Part shown: in pieces, positions 3,672 to 58,777 of the stretch
Numbering within the stretch: the first letter of the stretch is position 1
How the letters are laid out: every line of letters begins with the position of its first letter
Assembly: GCA_016936175.1 (NCBI GenBank)
Contig: JAFGPN010000003.1
Coordinates: 1-58,777, forward strand
Length of the DNA stretch: 58,777 nucleotides
From: Patescibacteria group bacterium
Lineage (GTDB): Bacteria; Patescibacteriota; Kazan-3B-28; UBA10110
Direction: 5' to 3'
Notes under the pieces: generated by a model
Told to the model about the DNA's origin: nothing
The model's input: the letters and a program-made list of their open reading frames with translations, nothing else
Database searches by the model: none
Program-made: the position numbers and the translations under genes

Positions 3672-6461
3672 TTATGCTCCATGACATTTCTTATACTTTT
3701 TTCCGCTGCCGCATGGACAGGGATCATTGCGGCCAATCTTGGCTTTTTTATCATTAGGATCTCGCACCGCGCTCCCTCTGCTGTCACCCTGAACTGACGA
3801 CGGTTTCCTTGCGTCGTCATCCTGGCTTGCCTGCCCGCCCGTAGCCTTGGCGTAGGAGGGTCCAGGATCGTAAGATTCTGGAGTCTTCTGCTGTCCAACA
3901 GAATCCCCAGAATGACGGGGTTGGGGATCAGAATGACGCTCGGGGGGCATTTCTTTTTTCTCGTCTTCAAAATCTCCCGCCGGTTCCGCGCCACCTTGTA
4001 AACTATAATCCGCGTCCGGCGTAGTTCTGCCATCCGGCAGAACGGAGCCTGGGCTATCGGCTCCCTTCATTGCTAGGTTTTTCTTCTCCGCCATCTCTCG
4101 ACTCTCCGGTGTCTGCCTTTGCGCCTCAACTCGTACCTTAAATATCATGTGGGTAACATCCGAGGCGATGGTTCTGAGCAACCGCTGGAACATGGTATAT
4201 GATTCTTGTTTGTATTCTGCTAACGGGTCCTTTTGGGCATAACCCTGCAGATTAATGCACTCGCGCATTCGCACCATTGCATCGAGATGTTCTACCCACA
4301 AAACATCTACCACCCGCAAGTAAACGGCCTTTTCCACCTGCCGCCAAGTTTCTACCCCAGATGATTGTTCGCGCTCTTCGTATAGTTTTTGGGCGCGCTT
4401 GAGCAGCAGATCGATAATCACCTGTGTGTTCTTGGCATCCTCGATCTCTAACTTAGTTGATTCGCCCAAGTCGAAGATGGTGTTGATTCCTTCGATAACT
4501 TCTTTAATATTCCACTGCTTTTTATCGTCAGTGCAGTGAAAGTTAACTAAACCCTCTATCTCGGACTTGATATCTTCCCAAATTTCATCTTTAAGACTTT
4601 CTTTTAATAAACTATCGCGCCGCTTGGCGTAGATGACGGTGCGTTGGCGGTTCATTACATCGTCGTACTGAACTACGTGTTTGCGGATATCAAAGTTATG
4701 GCCCTCGACCTTTTTCTGCGCCGCCTCGATACTATTGCTGATCATTTTATGCTCTAACGGCTGATCTTCGGGGATGCGCATCGTCTTCATCATGTTTTTT
4801 ATCCGCTCGCTCCCAAACAACCGCATCAGCTCATCTTCCATCGAGACAAAGAACTGCGAAGAGCCCGGATCGCCCTGTCGCCCAGACCGGCCGCGTAACT
4901 GATTGTCGATTCGGCGAGATTCGTGCCGCTCGGTGCCTAAAATATGCAAACCGCCCACCTCGATTACACCTTCGCCCAATTTAATATCGGTACCACGACC
5001 AGCCATGTTGGTGGCGATAGTAACCGCATTTTTTTGGCCTGCATCTTTAATAATCTCGGCTTCCCGTTCGTGGTTCTTGGCGTTTAACACATTGTGTTTA
5101 ACACCCTCTGTCATCAACATGTCCGAAAGTAACTCGGATTTTTCGATAGCGATAGTGCCAACCAAGATTGGCTGACCCTTGGCGTGCCGCTCTTTGATCT
5201 CCCGAACCACCGCTCCAAATTTAGCCGCCTCGCTAATAAACACCAGATCGTTTAAATCTTTGCGAACCATCGGCCGATTGGTCGGGACTACCACCACTTC
5301 GAGGCCATAGATCTTGTAGAATTCTTCCTCTTCGGTCTTGGCGGTACCCGTCATTCCAGCTAATTTGTTATAGAGGCGAAAATAGTTCTGGAAGGTAATG
5401 GTAGCCATCGTTCGGCTCTCTTGTTTTACCTCAACTGCTTCTTTGGCTTCGATTGCTTGATGCAGACCTTCGGAGTAACGCCTACCCACCATTAATCGGC
5501 CGGTAAATTCATCAACAATAATTACTTCACCATCTTTGACCACATAATCGACATCCTTTTTATATAGCGAGTGGGCTCTTAAGGCCTGTTCAATATGATG
5601 CGCCATCGTTACATCCCCGCCTTCGTAAAAACCTTTGATACCCATTAGCTGTTCTACCTTGGTGATGCCCTCGTCCGTCAGAATGGCTGTCCGCATTTTT
5701 TCGTCGATGTTGTAATCGACATTCGGAGTTAACGACGGCACAATTCGAGAAAACTTTCTGTACCATTCGGTCGAATCCTCGTCCGGCGCCGAGATAATTA
5801 ATGGAGTTCTGGCTTCATCGATTAAAATCGAGTCGACCTCATCTACAATGGCAAAATTAAGTTCGCGCTGAACCAGATCTTCTGGCCGAGTGGCCATGTT
5901 ATCTCTAAGATAGTCGAAACCAAATTCGTTATTAGTGCCGTAAATCACATCCGAGGCATACACCGCTCGGCGCTCGTGTTGTGGAGTATCGTGAGTAATG
6001 GCACCGACAGTTAGACCCAAAAATTGATAGATTTGGCCCATCCATTCTGCATCTCGTTTGGCCAGGTAGTCGTTAACCGTAACTACATGCACCCCTTTGC
6101 CGGTTAGCGCATTAAGATAAACCGGCAGAGTAGCGGCCAAGGTTTTACCCTCACCAGTGCGCATCTCGGAGATCTTACCTTGGTGCAGAACGATGCCCCC
6201 CATTAACTGAGTATCAAAAGCTCGCTCACCTAATACACGGTGAGCCGCCTCTCTGGTTACTGCAAACGCTTCTGGCAGTAGCTCGTCTAATGTTTCCCCC
6301 TTAGCCAATCTCTCCTTAAATTCCGTGGTTTTAGACTTTAGCTCATCATCGGATAACGATTTAATCTTATCCTCAAATGAATTAATTAGGGTCACGATTG
6401 GACCCAGTTGGTTTACCGCCTTTTTGTTTGGATCCCCCAGTAGCTTGTCTAACCAGCTCAT
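3672..6461 (-). CDS. secA: Preprotein translocase SecA
   Basis: MRTGEGKT, DEVDSILIDEARTPLIIS, C-terminal CPCGSGKKYKKCH; start taken at MSWLDK. Confidence 0.98.
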   Translation of the reverse strand: MSWLDKLLGDPNKKAVNQLGPIVTLINSFEDKIKSLSDDELKSKTTEFKERLAKGETLDELLPEAFAVTREAAHRVLGERAFDTQLMGGIVLHQGKISEMRTGEGKTLAATLPVYLNALTGKGVHVVTVNDYLAKRDAEWMGQIYQFLGLTVGAITHDTPQHERRAVYASDVIYGTNNEFGFDYLRDNMATRPEDLVQRELNFAIVDEVDSILIDEARTPLIISAPDEDSTEWYRKFSRIVPSLTPNVDYNIDEKMRTAILTDEGITKVEQLMGIKGFYEGGDVTMAHHIEQALRAHSLYKKDVDYVVKDGEVIIVDEFTGRLMVGRRYSEGLHQAIEAKEAVEVKQESRTMATITFQNYFRLYNKLAGMTGTAKTEEEEFYKIYGLEVVVVPTNRPMVRKDLNDLVFISEAAKFGAVVREIKERHAKGQPILVGTIAIEKSELLSDMLMTEGVKHNVLNAKNHEREAEIIKDAGQKNAVTIATNMAGRGTDIKLGEGVIEVGGLHILGTERHESRRIDNQLRGRSGRQGDPGSSQFFVSMEDELMRLFGSERIKNMMKTMRIPEDQPLEHKMISNSIEAAQKKVEGHNFDIRKHVVQYDDVMNRQRTVIYAKRRDSLLKESLKDEIWEDIKSEIEGLVNFHCTDDKKQWNIKEVIEGINTIFDLGESTKLEIEDAKNTQVIIDLLLKRAQKLYEEREQSSGVETWRQVEKAVYLRVVDVLWVEHLDAMVRMRECINLQGYAQKDPLAEYKQESYTMFQRLLRTIASDVTHMIFKVRVEAQRQTPESREMAEKKNLAMKGADSPGSVLPDGRTTPDADYSLQGGAEPAGDFEDEKKEMPPERHSDPQPRHSGDSVGQQKTPESYDPGPSYAKATGGQASQDDDARKPSSVQGDSRGSAVRDPNDKKAKIGRNDPCPCGSGKKYKKCHGA
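3816..3937. repeat. REP doublet translated in frame within the SecA C-terminal linker
   Basis: GTCATCCTGG...CCAGGATC plus GATTCTGG...CCAGAATGAC; the first unit is near-identical to 40225-40275. Confidence 0.8.
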
Positions 6462-6475
6462 ATCTTTTTTTATTG

Positions 6476-6580
6476 TCATCCCGAGCTCCAACCCGTGTCA
6501 TCCTGGCTTGCCATGTCTCGAGCTTGTCGAGAGGTCCAGGATCATACGATTCTGGAATCGCTACGCTCCCCAGAATGACG
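6476..6580. repeat. REP doublet between serS and secA
   Basis: GTCATCCTGG...CCAGGATC / GATTCTGG...CCAGAATGAC with an internal TCTCGAGCTTGTCGAGA palindrome, also present at about 9740-9760. Confidence 0.8.
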
Positions 6581-9729: not shown

Positions 9730-9933
9730 CGATTCTGGACCTCTCGATAAGCTCGAGACATGGCAAGCCAGAATGACGGCGAAACTAGATTCCTGCCTGC
9801 GCAGGAATAACGGGGAAAGGGCCTGGATTCCGGATCAGGTCGGGAATGACAATTCAACAAAAAGAAAAAGACCCCGAAGGTTCAGGGTCAATTCCAAATG
9901 ATATTGTAGGATCCTGGACGAAGCCAGGATGAC
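9730..9933. repeat. Cluster of four GTCAT-family REP palindromes
   Basis: GATTCTGG..CCAGAATGAC, GATTCC..GGAATGAC, GATCCTGG..CCAGGATGAC. Confidence 0.8.
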
Positions 9934-11359: not shown

Positions 11360-11366
11360 GGGGGAA

Positions 11367-11470
11367 TTTCTAATATCTAGTTTCTAATGCCTAAATAATG
11401 TCCAATCCCCAGTGTCTAAATTCTCGGGATTTAATTAAAAATTAGCAATTAGACATTAGGCATTATTGGG
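11367..11470. repeat. Inverted arrays of 7-mer repeats (TTTCTAA/TATCTAA ... TTAGACA/TTAGGCA)
   Basis: Same architecture at 14890-14927, 23808-23905 and 24655-24762. Confidence 0.75.
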
Positions 11471-16383: not shown

Positions 16384-16488
16384 GCCTAATTCTCCTTAAT
16401 TACTTCCGGCCGGATCCCCTCGGATACAGATCCCGGTAAACCGGGACAGGATGCATCCGATCCCCGAACCGTGCTTATTACTCCTAAA

Positions 16489-18235: not shown

Positions 18236-18937
18236 GTGGGTCAAAATGTAATAAATGAGGTCACTGTGGGCGAGCTTAATGCCTTAGTCCGCGCTGTTGG
18301 TGGCGTCGACAACCTGGAGGGCATTCTCAACGGTTCTAAGCAAGTAACCGTGAATGATATCCCACTTTTCACGAAAATAGGAACTGCCACCATTACCCCA
18401 ACCAATTCTGGTGATGCAGTGAGACTGTTATCGGGGAAGCTCTTTGTGCAGTTTGCAAATAGCTGTATCACGCAGATGAACATGCACGAATTCCTCCTGG
18501 AGGAGTTTAAGCATCGAAAGTCTGCGCCGATTCCCAAGATGATACTGAGTTACACCAATCTCCAACGTAAGCCTGTGCGCAAAGAGTTCAGTTACAGATC
18601 CTTCAGAGGTTCCGAGTCTCTCCCCGACAGCTTTGTCTTTGAGAGTGGAACGCTCTTTTCTCTCCTCTTCGATATGCTGTCTCTCCAGATAAACGGCGAG
18701 AAGGGTCATCTGATTACTAATGGTGGGGGAAATGTCTTCTATGCCGGGCATCGGGAAAACGTAACTGACGCACTGTATCCTCTGAGCGTATGTTTGGTCT
18801 GGCATGCAGAACCACATATCCCCTGGTACATGTGGATAGATCCCCACTTCAATAACCCTGGTGAGAGGTACCTGCAACCAGGAAATCGCATCTTCATCCC
18901 TGGTGACCATTCCGTCTTCACAGGAACCAAGCGGTAG
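18236..18937 (+). CDS. Hypothetical protein
   Basis: 233-aa ORF with AAGGAG SD, an upstream promoter-like TTGAAA-18-TATAGA and a downstream terminator. Confidence 0.7.
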   Translation: MGQNVINEVTVGELNALVRAVGGVDNLEGILNGSKQVTVNDIPLFTKIGTATITPTNSGDAVRLLSGKLFVQFANSCITQMNMHEFLLEEFKHRKSAPIPKMILSYTNLQRKPVRKEFSYRSFRGSESLPDSFVFESGTLFSLLFDMLSLQINGEKGHLITNGGGNVFYAGHRENVTDALYPLSVCLVWHAEPHIPWYMWIDPHFNNPGERYLQPGNRIFIPGDHSVFTGTKR

Positions 18938-19392: not shown

Positions 19393-19630
19393 CCCCCGCC
19401 ATCGAAGAAGAGCCCTTGTCTTTCTTATCCCATTGAGCAAATTGCGCTTACTCCCGCCATTGGAGCCCGAGTGTCCCGAATCGATAAAATTAGCGCTGCC
19501 GAAGCTGTTGTCTGAGCCCCGGTATACCGGGACGAGTTCAGCGAGAGGCGGAAAGCTATATTTTATCTGATGAGGAGCGAGGGCGACTGGCGGAAGATTT
19601 TGGTTACTTTTCTCGGAAAAGTAACAATTA
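19393..19630 (-). repeat. ~250-bp structured repeat, copy B
   Basis: About 110 bp nearly identical to copy C (58650-58777). Confidence 0.8.
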
Positions 19631-20222: not shown

Positions 20223-23222
20223 TTACTTTTTCTTTAAGCCCAAACTAACCGGGTGATTATTCAGCTTAATCTCTGACTTTGCCAATTTAGCATCCGCTTT
20301 AATCTCAGTTGCCAAGATTTCGCCCTGAATGTATTCAGCAAATTTGGTCAGAGTTTTTTTAATTAATTCATCCGAAGAAGAATAAAACAACTCTATTCTA
20401 TCCGACAACGCCAACCCAGACTCTTTACGCATAGTTTGCACCGCCCGAACTATCTCACGAGCTAATCCTTCGGCTTCTAACGCTGGGGTTAACTTGGTAT
20501 CCAACTGGTTAGCGGCCGCTTCGAACTGAATCTTTTTTACGTTTAATTCGTCTGCTATCAAGGCGGCCAATTCGTCGCCTAACTTTTTTTCTTTTGTCTG
20601 CATTAAAGCCAGCGGTTGCCGCACTTTTATCTTAGCCTCCTCCCTTAACGCGTGCCCAGCCTCTACCACCCTGCGGGCAGCTGCCATCTGGACTAACAGC
20701 TTACTGTCTGGCTCCGTCGCTTTTGGCCAATCTGTTAAATGAACCGATGGGGGATTAGCATCAGTTTTGATTGCTCCATACACCATCTCGGCGAACATTG
20801 GCATAAAGGGCGCCAGGATTAGCGAAGTTGAACGCAAAACCTGGTAGAGAGTTTGATAAGCCTGTTGTTTGTCTGCTGTATCCTCGTTTTTCCAAAACCG
20901 CTTACGACTTCGACGAACATACCAGTTAGAGGTGTCGTCAACTAATTTTTCAATCGCCAAACCAGCGTTCATCATATCGTAAACTTCCAGGCGCGCGGTT
21001 ACATCAGTAATCACTTCGTTTACTCGAGCCAACATCCACCGATCAAGCAGGTTTTTGGGCTTAGCGATTTTGGCGTTGGGTTGCCAGCCATCTAAATTAG
21101 CATAAGTGGTAAAGAAAAATAAAGTATTCCATAACGTTAAAACTAATCGGCGGGTAACTTGCTTTAACTCATTTTCGTCAAAACTTTTGGGTAACGCTGG
21201 TTGATTGATGGTACACAAATGCCAACGCAGCACGTCCGAGCCATATTTATTAAAGATATCCCACGGATCCACCATATTACCCTTCGACTTGCTCATCTTC
21301 TTACCGTGCTTATCCATAATGTGGCCGTTCACCAGCACATTTTTATAAGGAGCCCCCTTGTCCAACAAGGTGGAGATGGCCATTAGCGTATAAAACCAGC
21401 CTCGAGTCTGATCGATGCCCTCGGCAATAAAATCGGCTGGGAAAGCGGTCGCAGACCGTCCCGGTTTACCGGGAATACCGTCTATCCGCTCCTTATTTTC
21501 GAAGGGATAGTGCCACTGGGCAAACGGCATCGAGCCACTGTCGAACCAGACATCAATCACCTCCGGCACCCGGGTATATTCCTTGCCATCTTTAACCAGA
21601 ACAATCTCATCGACAAATGGTTTGTGCGGATTAAATTGTTTCTTGTCATCCCAAACTCGTTTCGGGATCTTTTTATTAGATTCTGAACCAAGTTCAGAAT
21701 GACCGGTAACGAGTTTGGGATCTTTGGCTAACGATTTGAGCTCTTCAAAACTACCGATACAGATATAGTCATCGCCATTTCGCCATAGTGGCAACGGCGT
21801 GCCCCAATATCGATCTCGCGAGATAGCCCAATCCTTAACTTCTTTTAGCCATTCGCCGAAGCGACCTTCTTTAATATGTTCTGGAATCCAATTAACGGTT
21901 TGATTATTAGCAATTAATTTATCTCTTAACTGCGACATCTTGATAAACCATGAGTGCATAGCATAGTACAACAGTGCCGTATCGCATCGCCAACAAAACG
22001 GATACTCGTGTTTGTATGGCAAGGCTTTAAACAACAATCCCCGTTTTTCTAAATCAGCGACAATCCCCTGCTCTACCTCGGGATCTTTAACGTACTTGCC
22101 GGCCCACTTTTCTACCCCGGGTAAGAACTTCCCTTCAAGAGAAACGGTGTGTACCTTCGGTAAATTAACCTGCTCTCCGAGCTGATAATCATCTTCTCCG
22201 TACATCACAGCGGTATGGACTACACCGGTCCCATCCTCGGTGGTAACAAAGTCGGCCGGATAGATTTTAAACGCATTGCCAAAATTTTCCACCGTGTCAG
22301 AGATCGAGCCCGGAAACAACGGCTCGTATTCTTTGCCAACTAAATTCTTGCCGGTAAACGTTTGAATTATCTTAGGCGCTTTATCAAAGACTTTCTCTAA
22401 TAAGTCTTTGGCTAAGATTACCTCGTCCGTGCCATCTTTTACTTTTACATATTTAATCTTGGCATCAACCGCCAAGGCCACATTGCCCGGCAGAGTCCAT
22501 GGCGTAGTTGTCCAAGCCAAAATATATACATTATTCTGACCCGCTGACCCGCTATCCCGCTGACCCGCTGTTTTAAGTTTAAACTTTACATAAATCGAGG
22601 TGTCTTCTACTTCTTTATAACCTTGCGCTACTTCATGGCTGGATAGAGCCGTGCCACAGCGCGGACAGTAGTGCACTACTTTGTGCCCCCGGTAGAGCAA
22701 CCCTTTATCCCAAACCTGTTTTATAATCCACCAGACTGATTCGATATAGTTAGGGTCATAGGTAATGTAGGGGTGCTCCAAGTCCAACCAAAAGCCGCTC
22801 CGGCGGGTAAACTCCTCCCAATCTTTTTTGTACTCCCAGACACTATTTTTAGCCTGCTCGTTGAACTCTGCTACCCCGTATTTTTCGATAGCCTGCTTGT
22901 TCTTGAGCCCCAGTTTTTTCTCGATGGCTATCTCCACCGGCAATCCATGGGTGTCCCAGCCTGCTTTCCGTTCTACCAAAAAACCCTGCATCGTCTTAAA
23001 CCGCGGGAAGATATCTTTAAAATAGCGGGCTATCAAGTGATGCAGACCCGGCTTAGCATTGGCAGTTGGTGGCCCCTCAAAAAAAACATACCGTTTGCCC
23101 TGAGCTTGTCGAAGGGCTAAACTTTTTTCGAAGATCTTAGTTTTATCCCAAAGTTCCAGAACTGCTTCTTCTTGTTCTGGCAGATTTAAATTGGAACTAA
23201 TTTTTTTGAACTGAGCCATCAC
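20223..23222 (-). CDS. ileS: Isoleucyl-tRNA synthetase, type 2
   Basis: EGPPTAN, GWDTHGLP, WTTTPWTLP, KMSKS; long type-2 C-terminus. Confidence 0.97.
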   Translation of the reverse strand: MMAQFKKISSNLNLPEQEEAVLELWDKTKIFEKSLALRQAQGKRYVFFEGPPTANAKPGLHHLIARYFKDIFPRFKTMQGFLVERKAGWDTHGLPVEIAIEKKLGLKNKQAIEKYGVAEFNEQAKNSVWEYKKDWEEFTRRSGFWLDLEHPYITYDPNYIESVWWIIKQVWDKGLLYRGHKVVHYCPRCGTALSSHEVAQGYKEVEDTSIYVKFKLKTAGQRDSGSAGQNNVYILAWTTTPWTLPGNVALAVDAKIKYVKVKDGTDEVILAKDLLEKVFDKAPKIIQTFTGKNLVGKEYEPLFPGSISDTVENFGNAFKIYPADFVTTEDGTGVVHTAVMYGEDDYQLGEQVNLPKVHTVSLEGKFLPGVEKWAGKYVKDPEVEQGIVADLEKRGLLFKALPYKHEYPFCWRCDTALLYYAMHSWFIKMSQLRDKLIANNQTVNWIPEHIKEGRFGEWLKEVKDWAISRDRYWGTPLPLWRNGDDYICIGSFEELKSLAKDPKLVTGHSELGSESNKKIPKRVWDDKKQFNPHKPFVDEIVLVKDGKEYTRVPEVIDVWFDSGSMPFAQWHYPFENKERIDGIPGKPGRSATAFPADFIAEGIDQTRGWFYTLMAISTLLDKGAPYKNVLVNGHIMDKHGKKMSKSKGNMVDPWDIFNKYGSDVLRWHLCTINQPALPKSFDENELKQVTRRLVLTLWNTLFFFTTYANLDGWQPNAKIAKPKNLLDRWMLARVNEVITDVTARLEVYDMMNAGLAIEKLVDDTSNWYVRRSRKRFWKNEDTADKQQAYQTLYQVLRSTSLILAPFMPMFAEMVYGAIKTDANPPSVHLTDWPKATEPDSKLLVQMAAARRVVEAGHALREEAKIKVRQPLALMQTKEKKLGDELAALIADELNVKKIQFEAAANQLDTKLTPALEAEGLAREIVRAVQTMRKESGLALSDRIELFYSSSDELIKKTLTKFAEYIQGEILATEIKADAKLAKSEIKLNNHPVSLGLKKK
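21645..21703. repeat. REP doublet in frame inside ileS
   Basis: GTCATCCC..GGGATCT / AGATTCTGAA..TTCAGAATGAC; compare intergenic 53228-53279. Confidence 0.8.
22536..22570. repeat. 8-bp tandem repeat (CTGACCCG)x4 inside ileS
   Basis: Direct reading; related arrays at 50120-50151 and 54025-54056. Confidence 0.8.
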
Positions 23223-23727: not shown

Positions 23728-23907
23728 CTTGTAATATTAAAAAATACTCTCCCATTATAGCCAAATCCCCCCAGATAGCAACTTTCCGCCCCTGAGGGGG
23801 CGGAGAATGTCTAATGTCGAATTTCTAATTAATAACTAAGGAATTAGGTGATTGGGATTTGGGGCTTAGTTAGACATTAGATATTAGAAATTAGTCATTC
23901 TTGGGAT

Positions 23908-24653: not shown

Positions 24654-24764
24654 TAATTTCTAATATCTAATGCCTAATTTCTAGATAAACCCCAATGACC
24701 AAAATCCCAAATAATTAGGACTTGGACATTATTTAGTCATTAGAAATTTGACATTAGAAATTGC

Positions 24765-27574: not shown

Positions 27575-27800
27575 GTCATTCTGAACTCGTTTCAGAATCT
27601 TTCTGATTCGAGATCCTGAAATAAATTCAGGATGACATTAAATTATTTAATAAATTGTTTAATTATCCTTATTGTCATTCCGACCTCTCCTCTTTGTCAT
27701 TCTGACCTCTCCTCTTTGTCATTCTGAGTGAAACGAAGAATCTATAAATATTCTTATATCCTTCGTCCCGACTCGTCTGGGCTCGAGGACGACAAGTCGA
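27575..27800. repeat. Cluster of GTCAT-family REP palindromes, with a direct duplication
   Basis: GTCATTCTGAA..CAGAATCT, GATCCTGAA..CAGGATGAC, and (GTCATTCYGACCTCTCCTCTTT)x2. Confidence 0.8.
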
Positions 27801-34205: not shown

Positions 34206-34491
34206 CCCGTTAGAAGCCCTTAGCAAAAAATAATTTTAACCGGTTTCGAATATATCGTTTACCCATAGCGGATTTGAGATATCGTTCTCGCGCCCTCGCA
34301 TCATCCCGCTCAAGAGACACTTCATAATAAATCAACTTCCACGGTGTTCCACAGATTTAGTTGATGTATTTTTATCGCCATTGTGGGTTAAAATTCTTTT
34401 TTACAGATCGTTGGTGAATCCAGTATACAGCTTCCCGTTGCGTTGACTAACCAGAACATAAATGTACCACTTAGATTGGATTCTAATGGGA
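34205..34491. mobile_element. 287-bp inverted-repeat cassette carrying a GIY-YIG gene
   Basis: TCCCGTTAGAA versus TTCTAATGGGA, 10/11 match; hisS TAG stop in the right arm, nuclease TAA stop in the left arm. Confidence 0.6.
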
Positions 34492-49447: not shown

Positions 49448-49517
49448 ATCTACCTCTAAATTAATTAATATTAATTTACCCTGAGCGTAGCCGAAGGGCT
49501 ACATCTCAATTTTTAAA

Positions 49518-53227: not shown

Positions 53228-53279
53228 GTCATCCTGAATTTATTTCAGAATCTAGATTCTGAAATTAGTTCAGAATGAC
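53228..53279. repeat. GTCAT-family REP doublet
   Basis: GTCATCCTGAATTTATTTCAGAATCT / AGATTCTGAAATTAGTTCAGAATGAC; similar at 29869-29951 and 54198-54249. Confidence 0.85.
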
Positions 53280-53285
53280 ATCGTA

Positions 53286-54074
53286 TTAAAGCGAGCTGAG
53301 ATCCACCTTAATTCCAGGGCCCATAGTCGAGGCCAACACTATCTTTTGGAGATATGTGCCTTTGGCCGAAGCCGGACGAGCACTAGATAATGCCTTAAAT
53401 AAAGTAGCAAAATTGCTCGTTAATCCATCTTTACCGAGCGAAATTTTGCCAAAACCAACATGAATAATGGCATCCTTGTCTAGTCGAAATTCGACCTTAC
53501 CCTTTTTGAATTCGGTCACTGCTTTGGTTACATCCTTGGTTACCGTACCGGTCTTGGGGTTAGGCATCAAACCCTTGGTACCCAAAATCTTACCGATCTT
53601 GCCAATTTTAACCATCATCTCAGGGGTAGCGATAGCCACGTTAAATCCCAGCCAACCATTTTTGATCTTTTCGACCAGGTCCTCACTACCAACAAAATCA
53701 GCACCCGCCTTTTTGGCTTCTGTAGCCTCGGCACCTTCAGCAAACACTAAAACCGTGGTGTCCTTACCCAATCCTGCTGGCATCGCCACCGTTCCCCGAA
53801 TATTTTGGTCAGCCTGCTTAGGGTCCAACCCAGTTTGAATATGCGCTTCGACCGTAGCATCAAACTTAACCGGTGATGTCTGCACCAATAAGTCCAGCGC
53901 TTCTTGAATCGGGTATAACTTAACCCGGTCAACTAGCTTGACCACGTCTAAATACTTCTTGCCTCGACCCCCCTTTGCTCTGCGGGCTACGGAGGGCTGC
54001 ACCTCGCTTACCGTCGTCTTCTTACTGACCCGCTTACCCGCTGATCTGCTAACCTGCTTTTTCGTATCTACCAT
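53286..54074 (-). CDS. rplA: 50S ribosomal protein L1 with N-terminal extension
   Basis: KFDATVE, GLMPNPKTGT, STMGPG; SD AGGAGG. Confidence 0.97.
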   Translation of the reverse strand: MVDTKKQVSRSAGKRVSKKTTVSEVQPSVARRAKGGRGKKYLDVVKLVDRVKLYPIQEALDLLVQTSPVKFDATVEAHIQTGLDPKQADQNIRGTVAMPAGLGKDTTVLVFAEGAEATEAKKAGADFVGSEDLVEKIKNGWLGFNVAIATPEMMVKIGKIGKILGTKGLMPNPKTGTVTKDVTKAVTEFKKGKVEFRLDKDAIIHVGFGKISLGKDGLTSNFATLFKALSSARPASAKGTYLQKIVLASTMGPGIKVDLSSL

Positions 54075-54085
54075 CACACCTCCTC

Positions 54086-54178
54086 GTGGTTTTACCCCGT
54101 AGCGACATACCGCTGAAATTGCGGCTAAGCAATTTCCGGTTTGTCCGGTATGGGGACTAGCGCCGTTAGGCTCCCACA
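54086..54178 (-). promoter_or_regulatory. L1-binding leader with an inserted palindrome
   Basis: GTGGGAGCC...TAAAACCAC frame; insert 54110-54139 matches 2612-2641 at 29/30. Confidence 0.65.
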
Positions 54179-54254
54179 ATTATGGATATAACCTTTCGTC
54201 ATCCTGAATTTATTTCAGGATCCATGTGCTGAGACTAGTTCAGCATGACATTTT

Positions 54255-58616: not shown

Positions 58617-58777
58617 CTCCCCGCCATCGGAGGAGAAAGCCCTTATCCCATCGGAGCCCGAGTGTGCTGAATCAACAAAACCACCGCTGACGAAGCTGTT
58701 GTCTGAGTCCCGGTATACCGGGACGAGTTCAGCGAGAGGCGGAAAGGTGGTTTTGTTAGATGAAGAACGAGGGCGAC
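58617..58777 (-). repeat. ~250-bp structured repeat, copy C (truncated by the window edge)
   Basis: Near-identical to 19460-19590. Confidence 0.8.

What the first reader, a model, noticed from the sequence alone, without database searches (positions are those of the whole stretch)
21445..23116. Four different repeat families translated in frame inside ileS
SEEN: (a) 21645-21703, a GTCAT REP doublet encoding GHSELGSESNKKIPKRVWDD; (b) 21459-21474, TCCCGGTTTACCGGGA, the exact reverse complement of 16431-16446 in the rpsB leader; (c) 22536-22570, an 8-mer array encoding TAGQRDSGSAGQ; (d) 23098-23116, CCCTGAGCTTGTCGAAGGG encoding LRQAQG, with an intergenic relative at 49479-49498. The frame is intact throughout. 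KNOWN: this is analogous to Rickettsia palindromic elements in coding genes. INFERENCE: continuing protein-loop invention by selfish palindromes in an essential enzyme.
Basis: partly seen in the sequence, partly recalled or inferred. Interest (0 to 1): 0.65.

Follow-up and report, generated by a model that had tools for sequence, protein, structure and literature searches.

The report
Repeat-derived in-frame loops in ileS
The single isoleucyl-tRNA synthetase gene of a tiny Kazan-group (CPR) bacterium has taken up copies of four genomic repeat families in frame, three as extra floppy loops; this is a clear new example of the "coding palindrome" behaviour already known from Rickettsia and other bacteria, not a new kind of element.

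Summary
The gene is an intact 999-aa type-2 IleRS on the minus strand (20223-23222).

An alignment with 29 orthologues shows three lineage-specific in-frame insertions:
- (a) +63 nt / 21 aa, a doublet of GTCAT-tagged hairpins. It is shared only with one congener.
- (b) +24 nt / 8 aa, built around a 16-nt palindrome.
- (c) +30 nt / 10 aa, an 8-nt-period tandem array, which is not a palindrome.

Site (d) is an exact copy of a 19-nt hairpin family, but it adds only one codon. It is an overwrite, not a gap-forming insertion.

In an AlphaFold model, (a) and (c) coincide with the only two segments with pLDDT below 50. Site (b) lies in lower-confidence coil.

All four families recur in related genomes and give no hits in G000 or any same-order genome with reversed-pattern controls.

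The GTCAT hairpins fit the CGTC-tagged REP / Ssn-related-motif class. The genome has exact Neisseria-NTS-type copies and about 12 small GIY-YIG genes, four of them flanked by inverted GTCAT hairpins. It has no RAYT.

The same loops of IleRS, and one loop of MutM, were hit independently in relatives. Insertion (a) is 97% identical between two species whose ileS is otherwise 75% identical.

Verdict: real, well supported, a new member of a known kind.

The parts
20223..23222 (-). ileS, type-2 (Thermus/eukaryote-like) isoleucyl-tRNA synthetase, 999 aa, and the only ileS in the genome
   Evidence: TIGR00392 scores 922 bits; 1ILE matches at E = 4e-252. The other hits in G000 are the Val/Leu enzymes.
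21645..21707 (-). Insertion a: 63 nt / 21 codons (TGHSELGSESNKKIPKRVWDD). The 59-nt GTCAT...ATGAC doublet occupies 21645-21703: unit 21679-21703, 9-nt spacer, unit 21645-21669.
   Evidence: Absent in 27 of 29 orthologues, including congener G001. Present in G002 with 61/63 nt identical. pLDDT is below 50 over model residues 507-527. As single-stranded DNA it folds at -22 kcal/mol, z = -7.5.
21708..21721 (.). Native flank AACGAGTTTGGGAT. It is a perfect 14-nt inverted match to 21648-21661 inside hairpin unit 2.
   Evidence: Read from the sequence. The minimum-free-energy fold uses this stem. In G002 only about 7 nt match. Its meaning is unclear: microhomology or chance.
21456..21479 (-). Insertion b: 24 nt / 8 codons (GIPGKPGR) built around the 16-nt palindrome 21459-21474. 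The next four codons (SATA) are also unlike those of relatives.
   Evidence: Gap in all close orthologues. Four identical 16-mers occur in the genome with unrelated flanks. The 16-mer pattern occurs at 9 sites in G000, 3 in G001 and 0 in G002. The site lies in coil, with a block pLDDT of 66.
22539..22568 (-). Insertion c: 30 nt / 10 codons (AGQRDSGSAG), part of the 8-nt tandem array 22536-22570. The unit is CTGACCCG, or CAGCGGGT on the coding strand.
   Evidence: The array family occurs in 12 of 41 related genomes with 0 in controls. pLDDT is below 50 over model residues 219-227. No fold is predicted.
23098..23116 (-). Site d: an exact copy of a 19-nt bulged-hairpin family (coding strand CCCTTCGACAAGCTCAGGG, encoding ALRQAQG). 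Net change against orthologues is +1 codon only.
   Evidence: The region has ordinary confidence in the model.
27575..27636 (.). Intergenic GTCAT/CTGAA hairpin doublet of the same family as insertion a
53228..53279 (.). Intergenic GTCAT/CTGAA hairpin doublet: the 52-nt form with a 2-nt spacer, closed in all six frames
54198..54249 (.). Intergenic GTCAT hairpin doublet upstream of the L1-like ORF
16431..16446 (.). Copy of the 16-nt palindrome (family b) upstream of rpsB. Only a 17-nt core is shared with the ileS copy.
54025..54062 (.). Related 8-nt array (family c) in the 5' part of the ORF 53286-54179
3816..3916 (-). Two GTCAT hairpin units read in frame in the C-terminal linker of secA (3672-6491)
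   Evidence: This one was not checked against orthologues.
34258..34472 (-). Decayed small GIY-YIG (Ssn-like) nuclease gene. It is one of about 12 GIY-YIG copies in the genome and a candidate partner of the hairpin families.

Best explanation
The only ileS gene of this roughly 0.7-Mb Kazan-group Patescibacteria genome has acquired DNA from four short interspersed repeat families of its own genome.

Three copies are net in-frame insertions:
- a 59-nt doublet of YGTC-tagged hairpins (21 aa);
- a 16-nt GC-rich palindrome (8 aa);
- an 8-nt-period tandem array (10 aa).

They sit in three variable surface loops: the start of the editing domain, the loop between the WGTPLP and DVWFDSG motifs, and the loop before FPADFIAEG. 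The fourth copy, a 19-nt hairpin, overwrote a linker with a net gain of one codon.

The inserts persist because only copies with a length divisible by three, free of stop codons, and placed in tolerant loops survive in an essential gene. They are translated as disordered hydrophilic loops. This step is inferred.

The hairpins belong to the CGTC-tagged REP / Ssn-related-motif class. Their spread is most likely linked to the genome's many small GIY-YIG (Ssn-type) single-strand nucleases, or to hairpin-driven template switching or recombination at single-stranded DNA. This step is inferred and not shown.

The 8-nt array most likely grew by replication slippage from a seeded unit.
For: **Insertions**
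- Codon-level alignment with 29 orthologues gives +63, +24 and +30 nt at sites a, b and c, and +3 nt at d.
- Insert a is absent from congener G001 and present in G002.

**The families are real**
- About 100 GTCAT hairpin units were found, against 37 in shuffles with a loose finder.
- The CTGAA subtype has 25 copies in G000, 0 in G001, 13 in G002, and 0 to 28 in other genomes of the order. Reversed controls gave 0.
- The stem position covaries: C-G 17, G-C 7, T-A 6, and one mismatch.
- 65 of 102 units lie in the roughly 10% of the genome that is intergenic.
- Families b, c and d were confirmed across genomes.

**Class**
- The base before GTCAT is C in 48 and T in 48 of 102 units.
- There are 7 copies of the Neisseria NTS consensus at up to 1 mismatch.
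- There are 11 to 12 single-domain GIY-YIG ORFs, 4 of them flanked by inverted GTCAT hairpins, as described for Ssn/SRM in PMC11893778.
- Intragenic REP dimers that encode 20 to 30 aa are described in PMC3733652.

**Survivorship filter**
- Only 7 of 66 frame-by-orientation combinations of the genome's doublets are open.
- The common 52-nt form is closed in all six frames.
- The ileS and mutM copies are both the 59-nt form with a 9-nt spacer.

**Loops**
- The only two segments with pLDDT below 50 in a model of mean pLDDT 86 are residues 219-227 and 507-527, which are inserts c and a.

**Generality**
- In-frame copies also occur in uvrC, cysS, secA, mutM, ligA and RT genes.
- The mutM case was verified against 13 orthologues.
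Against: - No target-site duplication or clear element boundary is visible at any site.
- The ileS units do not match the published SRM search pattern.
- No GIY-YIG gene in this 90%-complete genome is flanked by the CTGAA subtype, so the link to Ssn is indirect.
- Ssn is known as a nuclease, not a transposase.
- Translation of the inserts is not demonstrated.
- Inserts b and c are seen in this assembly only, and raw reads could not be examined.
- Insert a is far more conserved between G000 and G002 (61/63 nt; third positions 95% against about 50 to 70% in the flanks) than a merely tolerated neutral loop should be.
Confidence: 0.8

Rival explanations
1. The in-gene hairpins are not just tolerated passengers. 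They are kept by selection at the nucleic-acid level, for example as Ssn or other protein recognition sites on single-stranded DNA, as recombination or transformation landmarks, or as mRNA structures. A 'coding-competent' 59-nt doublet subfamily would then be retained at particular loops of core genes.
For: - Insert a is a sharply bounded island of conservation. It is 96.8% identical at the nucleotide level, with 95% third-position identity, between G000 and G002. The flanking 30-codon blocks are 76 to 82% identical, with third positions at 47 to 70%.
- It is the most conserved 21-codon window of the gene.
- In mutM, the orthologous doublet with the same 9-nt spacer is 83 to 87% identical across families, against 67% for the rest of the gene. 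It shows a compensatory stem change, CTGAA/TTCAG to CCGAA/TTCGG.
- The stem covaries genome-wide.
Against: - The same pattern would arise from recent lateral replacement or recombination of the element alone.
- It would also arise from independent insertion of near-consensus copies into a hot spot.
- The evidence rests on only two or three orthologous comparisons.
- G001 does without insert a.
- In G000 one stem position of unit 2 has decayed to a G-T/A-C pair.
- No function is known for such sites inside genes.
Confidence: 0.3
2. These are ordinary lineage-specific loop indels. Slippage and point mutation in fast-evolving loops produced sequences that resemble genomic repeats by coincidence.
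For: - The three loops vary in length across IleRS generally.
- In some relatives the site-c inserts visibly grow out of the native K-V-K-S coding sequence by 7 to 8-nt slippage (L019, L028).
- Site d needs only +3 nt and a few substitutions from the sequence seen in relative L003.
Against: - Site a is a full 59-nt family member.
- Site b is an exact 16-mer present four times, where about 1e-4 copies are expected.
- Site d is an exact 19-mer found at non-ileS sites in 4 other genomes, with 0 in controls.
- The c unit is absent from the native flanks but common in related genomes.
Confidence: 0.05
3. This is an assembly artefact. Repeats were spliced into ileS when the metagenome-assembled genome was built.
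For: - The genome is a fragmented MAG of 18 contigs.
- Some repeats sit at contig ends.
- Inserts b and c are unique to this assembly.
Against: - Insert a is present at the same codon in an independently assembled genome, Kazan bacterium RIFCSPLOWO2_01_FULL_48_13.
- All inserts are multiples of three, free of stops, and internal to a 58.8-kb contig.
- Analogous inserts occur in complete single-contig relatives.
Confidence: 0.03

Closest known systems
Intragenic CGTC-tagged REPs (Di Nocera, De Gregorio & Rocco 2013, BMC Genomics 14:522, PMC3733652), which include Rickettsia conorii RPE-4 and RPE-6
   Same: - Short stem-loop repeats tagged by (C)GTC next to the stem.
- Many copies, often as inverted dimers.
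- Mostly intergenic, but some inserted in frame, with dimers encoding 20 to 30 aa.
- DNA-repair genes are among the hosts; here they include uvrC, mutM and ligA.
- No dedicated transposase is known.
   Different: - The host is a Kazan-group CPR genome, and I found no paper reporting this for CPR.
- The tag is YGTC, with T as frequent as C. The ileS unit 1 is preceded by G.
- The stem is AT-rich (CTGAA/TTCAG).
- One gene carries four different families.
NTS / Ssn-related motifs with SsnA GIY-YIG ssDNA nucleases (Chenal et al. 2025, Nat Commun 16:2388, PMC11893778)
   Same: - The genome holds exact NTS-consensus copies (CGTCATTCCCGCGMAVGCGGGAATCYRG).
- It also holds about 12 single-domain GIY-YIG ORFs of roughly 87 to 108 aa, four of them flanked on both sides by inverted GTCAT hairpins.
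   Different: - The CTGAA-stem units in ileS do not match the published SRM search pattern.
- No nuclease gene is flanked by that subtype.
- Ssn is shown to cut ssDNA and to modulate transformation. It is not shown to insert repeats into genes.
Rickettsia palindromic elements (RPE; Ogata et al. 2000, as summarised in PMC10969869)
   Same: Palindromic repeats are inserted in frame into housekeeping genes of a reduced genome. They are read as extra surface peptides without destroying function.
   Different: - RPE-1 is longer, about 100 to 150 bp.
- The host lineage and families are different.
- Sequence relatedness was not tested here.
REPINs and RAYTs (Bertels & Rainey 2011, PMC3116915)
   Same: A doublet of two inverted REP hairpins separated by a short spacer, which behaves as a unit.
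   Different: - REPINs carry GTAG-type tags and depend on a RAYT (IS200/IS605 Y1 transposase).
- None is present in this genome.

Membership tests
CGTC-tagged REP superfamily (PMC3733652) | Short (about 20 to 40 bp) repeated palindrome that forms a stem-loop | tested here: met
   Units are 23 to 25 nt with an 8-bp stem. The stem position covaries in 30 of 31 units. The doublet region folds at z = -7.5.
CGTC-tagged REP superfamily (PMC3733652) | CGTC tetranucleotide at one end of the stem | tested here: inconclusive
   GTC is invariant. The preceding base is C in 48, T in 48, A in 3 and G in 3 of 102 units. The ileS units carry TGTC and GGTC.
CGTC-tagged REP superfamily (PMC3733652) | High copy number, mostly intergenic, often as inverted dimers | tested here: met
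   About 100 units in 0.67 Mb, 65 of them intergenic, and 11 strict CTGAA doublets.
Ssn-related motif (SRM) / NTS (PMC11893778) | Match to the search pattern HGTCWYN(0-2)YYVSBRHN(0-5)WNVSBRGN(0-2)RNCYNB | tested here: not met
   There is no match on either strand of 21630-21730. Genome-wide there are 11 matches, against 3.05 in Markov-random genomes, all of the GC-stem subtypes.
Ssn-related motif (SRM) / NTS (PMC11893778) | Association with a small single-domain GIY-YIG (ssnA-like) gene flanked by the motif | tested here: inconclusive
   Four GIY-YIG ORFs are flanked by inverted GTCAT hairpins of other subtypes, and none by the CTGAA subtype. NCBIfam has no model for the 95-aa protein.
REPIN/RAYT system | A RAYT (Y1 transposase, PF01797) in the genome, flanked by the REPs | tested here: not met
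   There are 0 matches at E <= 0.01 in G000. The control search matched in 6 of 14 reference genomes.
MITE | Terminal inverted repeats plus a target-site duplication | tested here: not met
   The ends GTCAT/ATGAC are inverted, but no duplication is visible at the ileS junctions against the empty site of G001.
Rickettsia palindromic elements | Sequence membership in RPE-1 to RPE-10 | not tested
   No RPE sequences were compared. Only the behaviour (an in-frame palindrome in a housekeeping gene) is shared.
Type-2 isoleucyl-tRNA synthetase | Full-length match to the ileS equivalog model and to solved IleRS structures | tested here: met
   TIGR00392 scores 922 bits against a cut-off of 621. 1ILE matches at E = 4e-252 and 8C8W at 3e-242.

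The most novel reading that the evidence does not exclude
Hairpin repeats inside core genes of Kazan-group CPR bacteria may be functional nucleic-acid sites kept by selection. A 'coding-competent' 59-nt doublet form, with a 9-nt spacer and open in one frame, is retained or re-installed at a few specific protein loops such as IleRS site a and the MutM loop.

The observations that leave this reading open:
- It is conserved far above the host gene: 97% against 75% in ileS, and 83 to 87% against 67% in mutM.
- It shows a compensatory stem change.

If so, these sites would act as landmarks for Ssn-type single-strand nucleases, or for recombination or transformation. They would not be junk that happens to be tolerated.
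Probability: 0.25. Interest if true: 0.7.

Novelty: new member of a known kind. Interest (0 to 1): 0.4.

Why it matters
This is a clean and quantified case. In a 0.67-Mb genome with few genes to spare, interspersed repeats of several kinds enter an essential aminoacyl-tRNA synthetase and are read as protein, at the same few loops again and again in related lineages.

That extends the 'coding palindrome' behaviour of Rickettsia and of CGTC-type REPs to CPR bacteria.

It also matters for annotation. Peptides such as GHSELGSES...DD, RLRGND and LRQAQGK in CPR proteins derive from repeats. They should not be treated as lineage-specific functional motifs.

The island of nucleotide conservation over the insert gives a concrete way to test whether such hairpins have a function of their own.

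Tried and rejected
- **RAYT / Y1 transposase as mobiliser:** no match in the genome.
- **Rfam families over the window:** only four tRNAs were found, and nothing at the repeats.
- **Published SRM pattern on the ileS units:** no match.
- **Target-site duplications at sites a and b:** none is convincing. A GACGGT direct repeat brackets part of insert b, but it does not account for the 24-nt gain.
- **The 49-nt, 73% 'inverted repeat' between the rpsB leader and ileS reported by the repeat finder:** only a 17-nt core is shared, and the rest is at chance level.
- **Recent recombination patch as the cause of the conservation of insert a:** the flanks are at background identity, so any patch would have to be the element alone.
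- **Literature search for a report of in-frame repeats in CPR/Patescibacteria:** none was found.
Full report
**The gene and the four features**

The region lies in one ORF on the minus strand, 20223..23222, of 999 codons with no stop. It is isoleucyl-tRNA synthetase of the Thermus/eukaryote-like type. It scores 922 bits against TIGR00392 (cut-off 621). It matches T. thermophilus IleRS 1ILE at E = 4e-252 and the IleRS2 entry 8C8W at E = 3e-242. It is the only ileS in the 670-kb, 18-contig, 90%-complete genome; the other hits are the Val/Leu enzymes.

A pattern scan of public genomes returned only a 'candidate division Kazan bacterium' MAG from the Rifle aquifer. That MAG carries insert a and appears to be the congener G002, so the organism is most likely a Kazan-group member of the Patescibacteria/CPR.

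All four sequence features are at the stated coordinates.

**Are they insertions?**

I fetched ileS from 29 related genomes (2 of the same genus, 10 of the same family, 11 of the same order and 6 of the same phylum), translated them and aligned them. I then made a codon-level alignment with the closest ones.

- **Site a.** G000 has 24 residues between LV and FNPH where G001 (same genus, 82% identical) and nearly all others have 3. That is a gain of 63 nt, at 21645-21707. The same insert at the same codon occurs in G002 (same genus) and nowhere else.
- **Site b.** Eight residues (GIPGKPGR, 24 nt, 21456-21479) are present only in G000. The next four residues are also unlike those of relatives.
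- **Site c.** Ten residues (AGQRDSGSAG, 30 nt, 22539-22568) are present only in G000.
- **Site d.** G000 has ALRQAQGK where relatives have A(A/L)R-A(K/R)G(K/Q). That is one extra codon and nothing more.

A scan of the whole alignment found exactly these three G000-specific blocks of three or more residues and no others.

**Where they sit in the protein**

An AlphaFold2 model built on a 27-sequence alignment has a mean pLDDT of 86.2 and a pTM of 0.79. Only two segments fall below pLDDT 50: residues 219-227 and 507-527, which are inserts c and a. Insert b lies in a coil stretch with a block mean of 66. Site d is at the end of a helix with ordinary confidence.

By alignment with 1ILE and with the isolated editing-domain structures:
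- site c is at the N-terminal edge of the CP1 editing domain, just before the TTTPWTLPGN motif;
- site a is between the WGTPLP and DVWFDSG motifs;
- site b is just before FPADFIAEGIDQTRGWF.

Distances to tRNA or to the active sites were not computed.

**The repeat families**

*Family a.* A simple finder (GTCAT followed by an 8-nt arm and its complement) gives 135 hits against 37 in shuffled sequence. About 100 of these end in the conserved ...ATC. They fall into subtypes with different stems: CTGAA/TTCAG, TCCCGCG/CGCGGGA, CTGGC/GCCAG and TGCGAG/CTCGCA.

The CTGAA subtype has 25 strict copies here, 0 in congener G001, 13 in G002, and 0 to 28 in other genomes of the order. It is almost absent outside the order. 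The reversed-pattern control gave 0 everywhere.

The variable stem position covaries: C-G 17, G-C 7, T-A 6, and one mismatch. Of 102 units, 65 are intergenic, although intergenic DNA is only about 10% of the genome.

*Family b.* TCCCGGTAAACCGGGA occurs four times with unrelated flanks. The looser CCCGGTNNACCGGG occurs at 13 sites. Some of these are terminator-like, and some are embedded in a roughly 100-nt repeat. The 16-mer pattern occurs at 9 sites in G000, 3 in G001 and 0 in G002.

*Family c.* 8-nt arrays of AGCGGGTN occur at about 5 loci here and in 12 of 41 related genomes, all within the order. Controls gave 0.

*Family d.* The exact 19-mer of ileS occurs at 5 non-ileS sites in 4 related genomes. 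Two intergenic copies in G000 differ by a compensatory pair, CCCT...AGGG against CCAT...ATGG. Site d is therefore a true family copy and not chance. Because it adds only one codon, it must have replaced about 16 nt of a linker that already encoded a similar peptide (ALR-AKGK in relative L003).

**What kind of element is the GTCAT hairpin?**

The base before GTCAT is C or T in 96 of 102 units. This matches the '(C)GTC-tagged REP' class of Di Nocera et al. 2013. Those authors already reported intragenic copies in several phyla, dimers that encode 20 to 30 aa, a bias towards repair genes, the inclusion of Rickettsia RPE-4 and RPE-6, and no dedicated transposase (PMC3733652).

Earlier notes of this scan pointed me to Chenal et al. 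2025 (PMC11893778), and I tested that lead here.
- The genome holds 7 copies of the Neisseria NTS consensus at up to 1 mismatch.
- It has 11 matches to the published SRM pattern, against 3.05 in random genomes.
- It has 11 to 12 single-domain GIY-YIG ORFs of about 87 to 108 aa.
- Four of those ORFs are bracketed by inverted GTCAT hairpins, one of them by perfect NTS copies.
- No Y1 transposase/RAYT is present.

However, the AT-rich CTGAA units of the ileS insert do not match the SRM pattern, and no GIY-YIG gene is flanked by that subtype. I therefore file the ileS doublet under the CGTC-REP / Ssn-related class by resemblance. Strict SRM membership is not met, and mobilisation by Ssn-type nucleases is an inference.

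**Why these copies survive in an essential gene**

Of the 11 strict CTGAA doublets in the genome, only 7 of 66 frame-by-orientation readings are free of stops. The common 52-nt form with a TA spacer is closed in all six frames.

The two copies deep inside core genes, ileS and mutM, are both the rarer 59-nt form with a 9-nt spacer. They are read in the same frame: xGT CAT xCT GAA ... GAT GAC, giving GHSELGSESNKKIPKRVWDD and RHAEFSSASKSKILKRVQDD. This is what a survivorship filter predicts.

In-frame copies also lie in uvrC, cysS, secA (window 3816-3916), ligA, two RT genes and a ComM-like gene. I verified only the mutM case against orthologues.

**Recurrent hits at the same loops**

In other genomes, the same three IleRS loops carry different repeat-derived inserts:
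- GTCATTGCGAG-type elements (L019, L029) and a CCTCCCCTTGGCAAGGGAGG hairpin (L007, L023) at site a;
- 7 to 8-nt arrays at site a (L014, L017, L018) and at site c (L014, L019, L028, L029);
- other hairpins at site b (L014, L029).

The MutM loop carries a different GTCAT-type peptide in almost every genome, while two genomes have a minimal loop. Either these are the only tolerant spots, or resident elements attract replacement. I cannot separate the two.

**An unexpected island of conservation**

The three congeners are equidistant: 81 to 82% aa identity, 74 to 75% nt identity, and third-position identity of about 52 to 56% at conserved residues. Yet insert a is 61/63 nt identical between G000 and G002, with 95% third-position identity. 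It is the most conserved 21-codon window of the gene. The adjacent 30-codon blocks are at background, 76 to 82% nt identity with third positions at 47 to 70%.

In mutM, the orthologous doublet with the same spacer is 83 to 87% identical across families, against 67% for the rest of the gene. It shows a compensatory stem change.

This fits either selection on the hairpin itself or recent replacement of the element alone. It is the basis of the 'novel case'. In G000, 14 nt of native flank (21708-21721) are perfectly complementary to an arm of unit 2, and the predicted fold uses that stem. In G002 the match is much weaker, so I leave this unexplained.

**Limits**

- Translation of the inserts is inferred from the intact frame of an essential single-copy gene.
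- Mobility is inferred from patchy distribution and from presence or absence at orthologous sites.
- No junction signature was found.
- My gene set for the census is a greedy ORF set, not a curated annotation.

**Verdict**

The kind of event is already described for other bacteria, and it has been met repeatedly in CPR genomes elsewhere in this scan, so this is a new member of a known kind. Its more interesting side issues are the hot-spot loops and the conservation of the inserted hairpins.

Noticed in passing
window 11365-11388, 23806-23829, 23870-23899, 24654-24683; also C15 9013-9117, C17 10833-10862, C18 9377-9406: Intergenic arrays of 3 to 4.5 copies of a 7-nt unit (TTAGAMA / AATTTCT) recur upstream of or between genes. 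They form inverted pairs with each other (I3, I5, I13). Their nature is unknown; they may be promoter or binding-site arrays.
   Followed up: no
window 19457-19555 and 58648-58746; also C14 1-100 and C18 ~18450-18550: A roughly 100-nt repeat, 90% identical between copies, contains the palindrome CCCGGTATACCGGG. Two copies sit at contig ends. It has no Rfam match.
   Followed up: partly
genome G000: C1 21440-21661, C2 10207-10428, C2 13900-14115, C7 2676-2885 and 8 more; window 34258-34472 (decayed copy): Eleven to twelve small single-domain GIY-YIG ORFs occur in a 0.67-Mb genome. Four are bracketed by inverted GTCAT hairpins, and several lie directly next to tRNA 3' ends.
   Followed up: partly
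C15 6053-7036 (mutM) and loci L040-L053: One MutM loop carries a different GTCAT-type insert in almost every related genome. G000, G013 and G015 share a 59-nt doublet with a compensatory stem change. A second site carries 8-nt-array inserts in G000 and G014.
   Followed up: partly
window 3816-3916 (secA 3672-6491, minus strand): Two GTCAT hairpin units are read in frame (RHSGDSVGQQKTPESYDPGPSYAKATGGQASQDD) in the C-terminal linker of SecA. This was not compared with orthologues.
   Followed up: no
P0001 residues ~480-490 and ~540-548: This IleRS lacks the paired cysteines that T. thermophilus IleRS has at the aligned positions: WVCqaCGKEE against WRN..GDDYIC, and ELAcACGG against VLV.KDGK. The small zinc-knuckle-like element that flanks insertion site a therefore appears to lack its cysteines here.
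   Followed up: no
L015 (G002 ileS): The congener's ileS has two further lineage-specific inserts, GGQFIP and the 24-aa DNTHPLYGAIGSCLEYGVTVHKKI, in the editing-domain region. They do not look repeat-derived.
   Followed up: no
window 27672-27727: A 22-nt tandem repeat (TTGTCATTCTGACCTCTCCTCT, 2.5 copies, 97% match) lies next to the intergenic GTCAT doublet at 27575-27636. A related sequence lies at 6470-6505.
   Followed up: no
window 6497-6543 and 9731-9777; C17 ~5230-5280: Composite elements in which the d-type core (CTCGAGCTTGTCGAGAG) is nested in the loop of a GTCAT hairpin. The two window copies are 92% complementary (I1).
   Followed up: no
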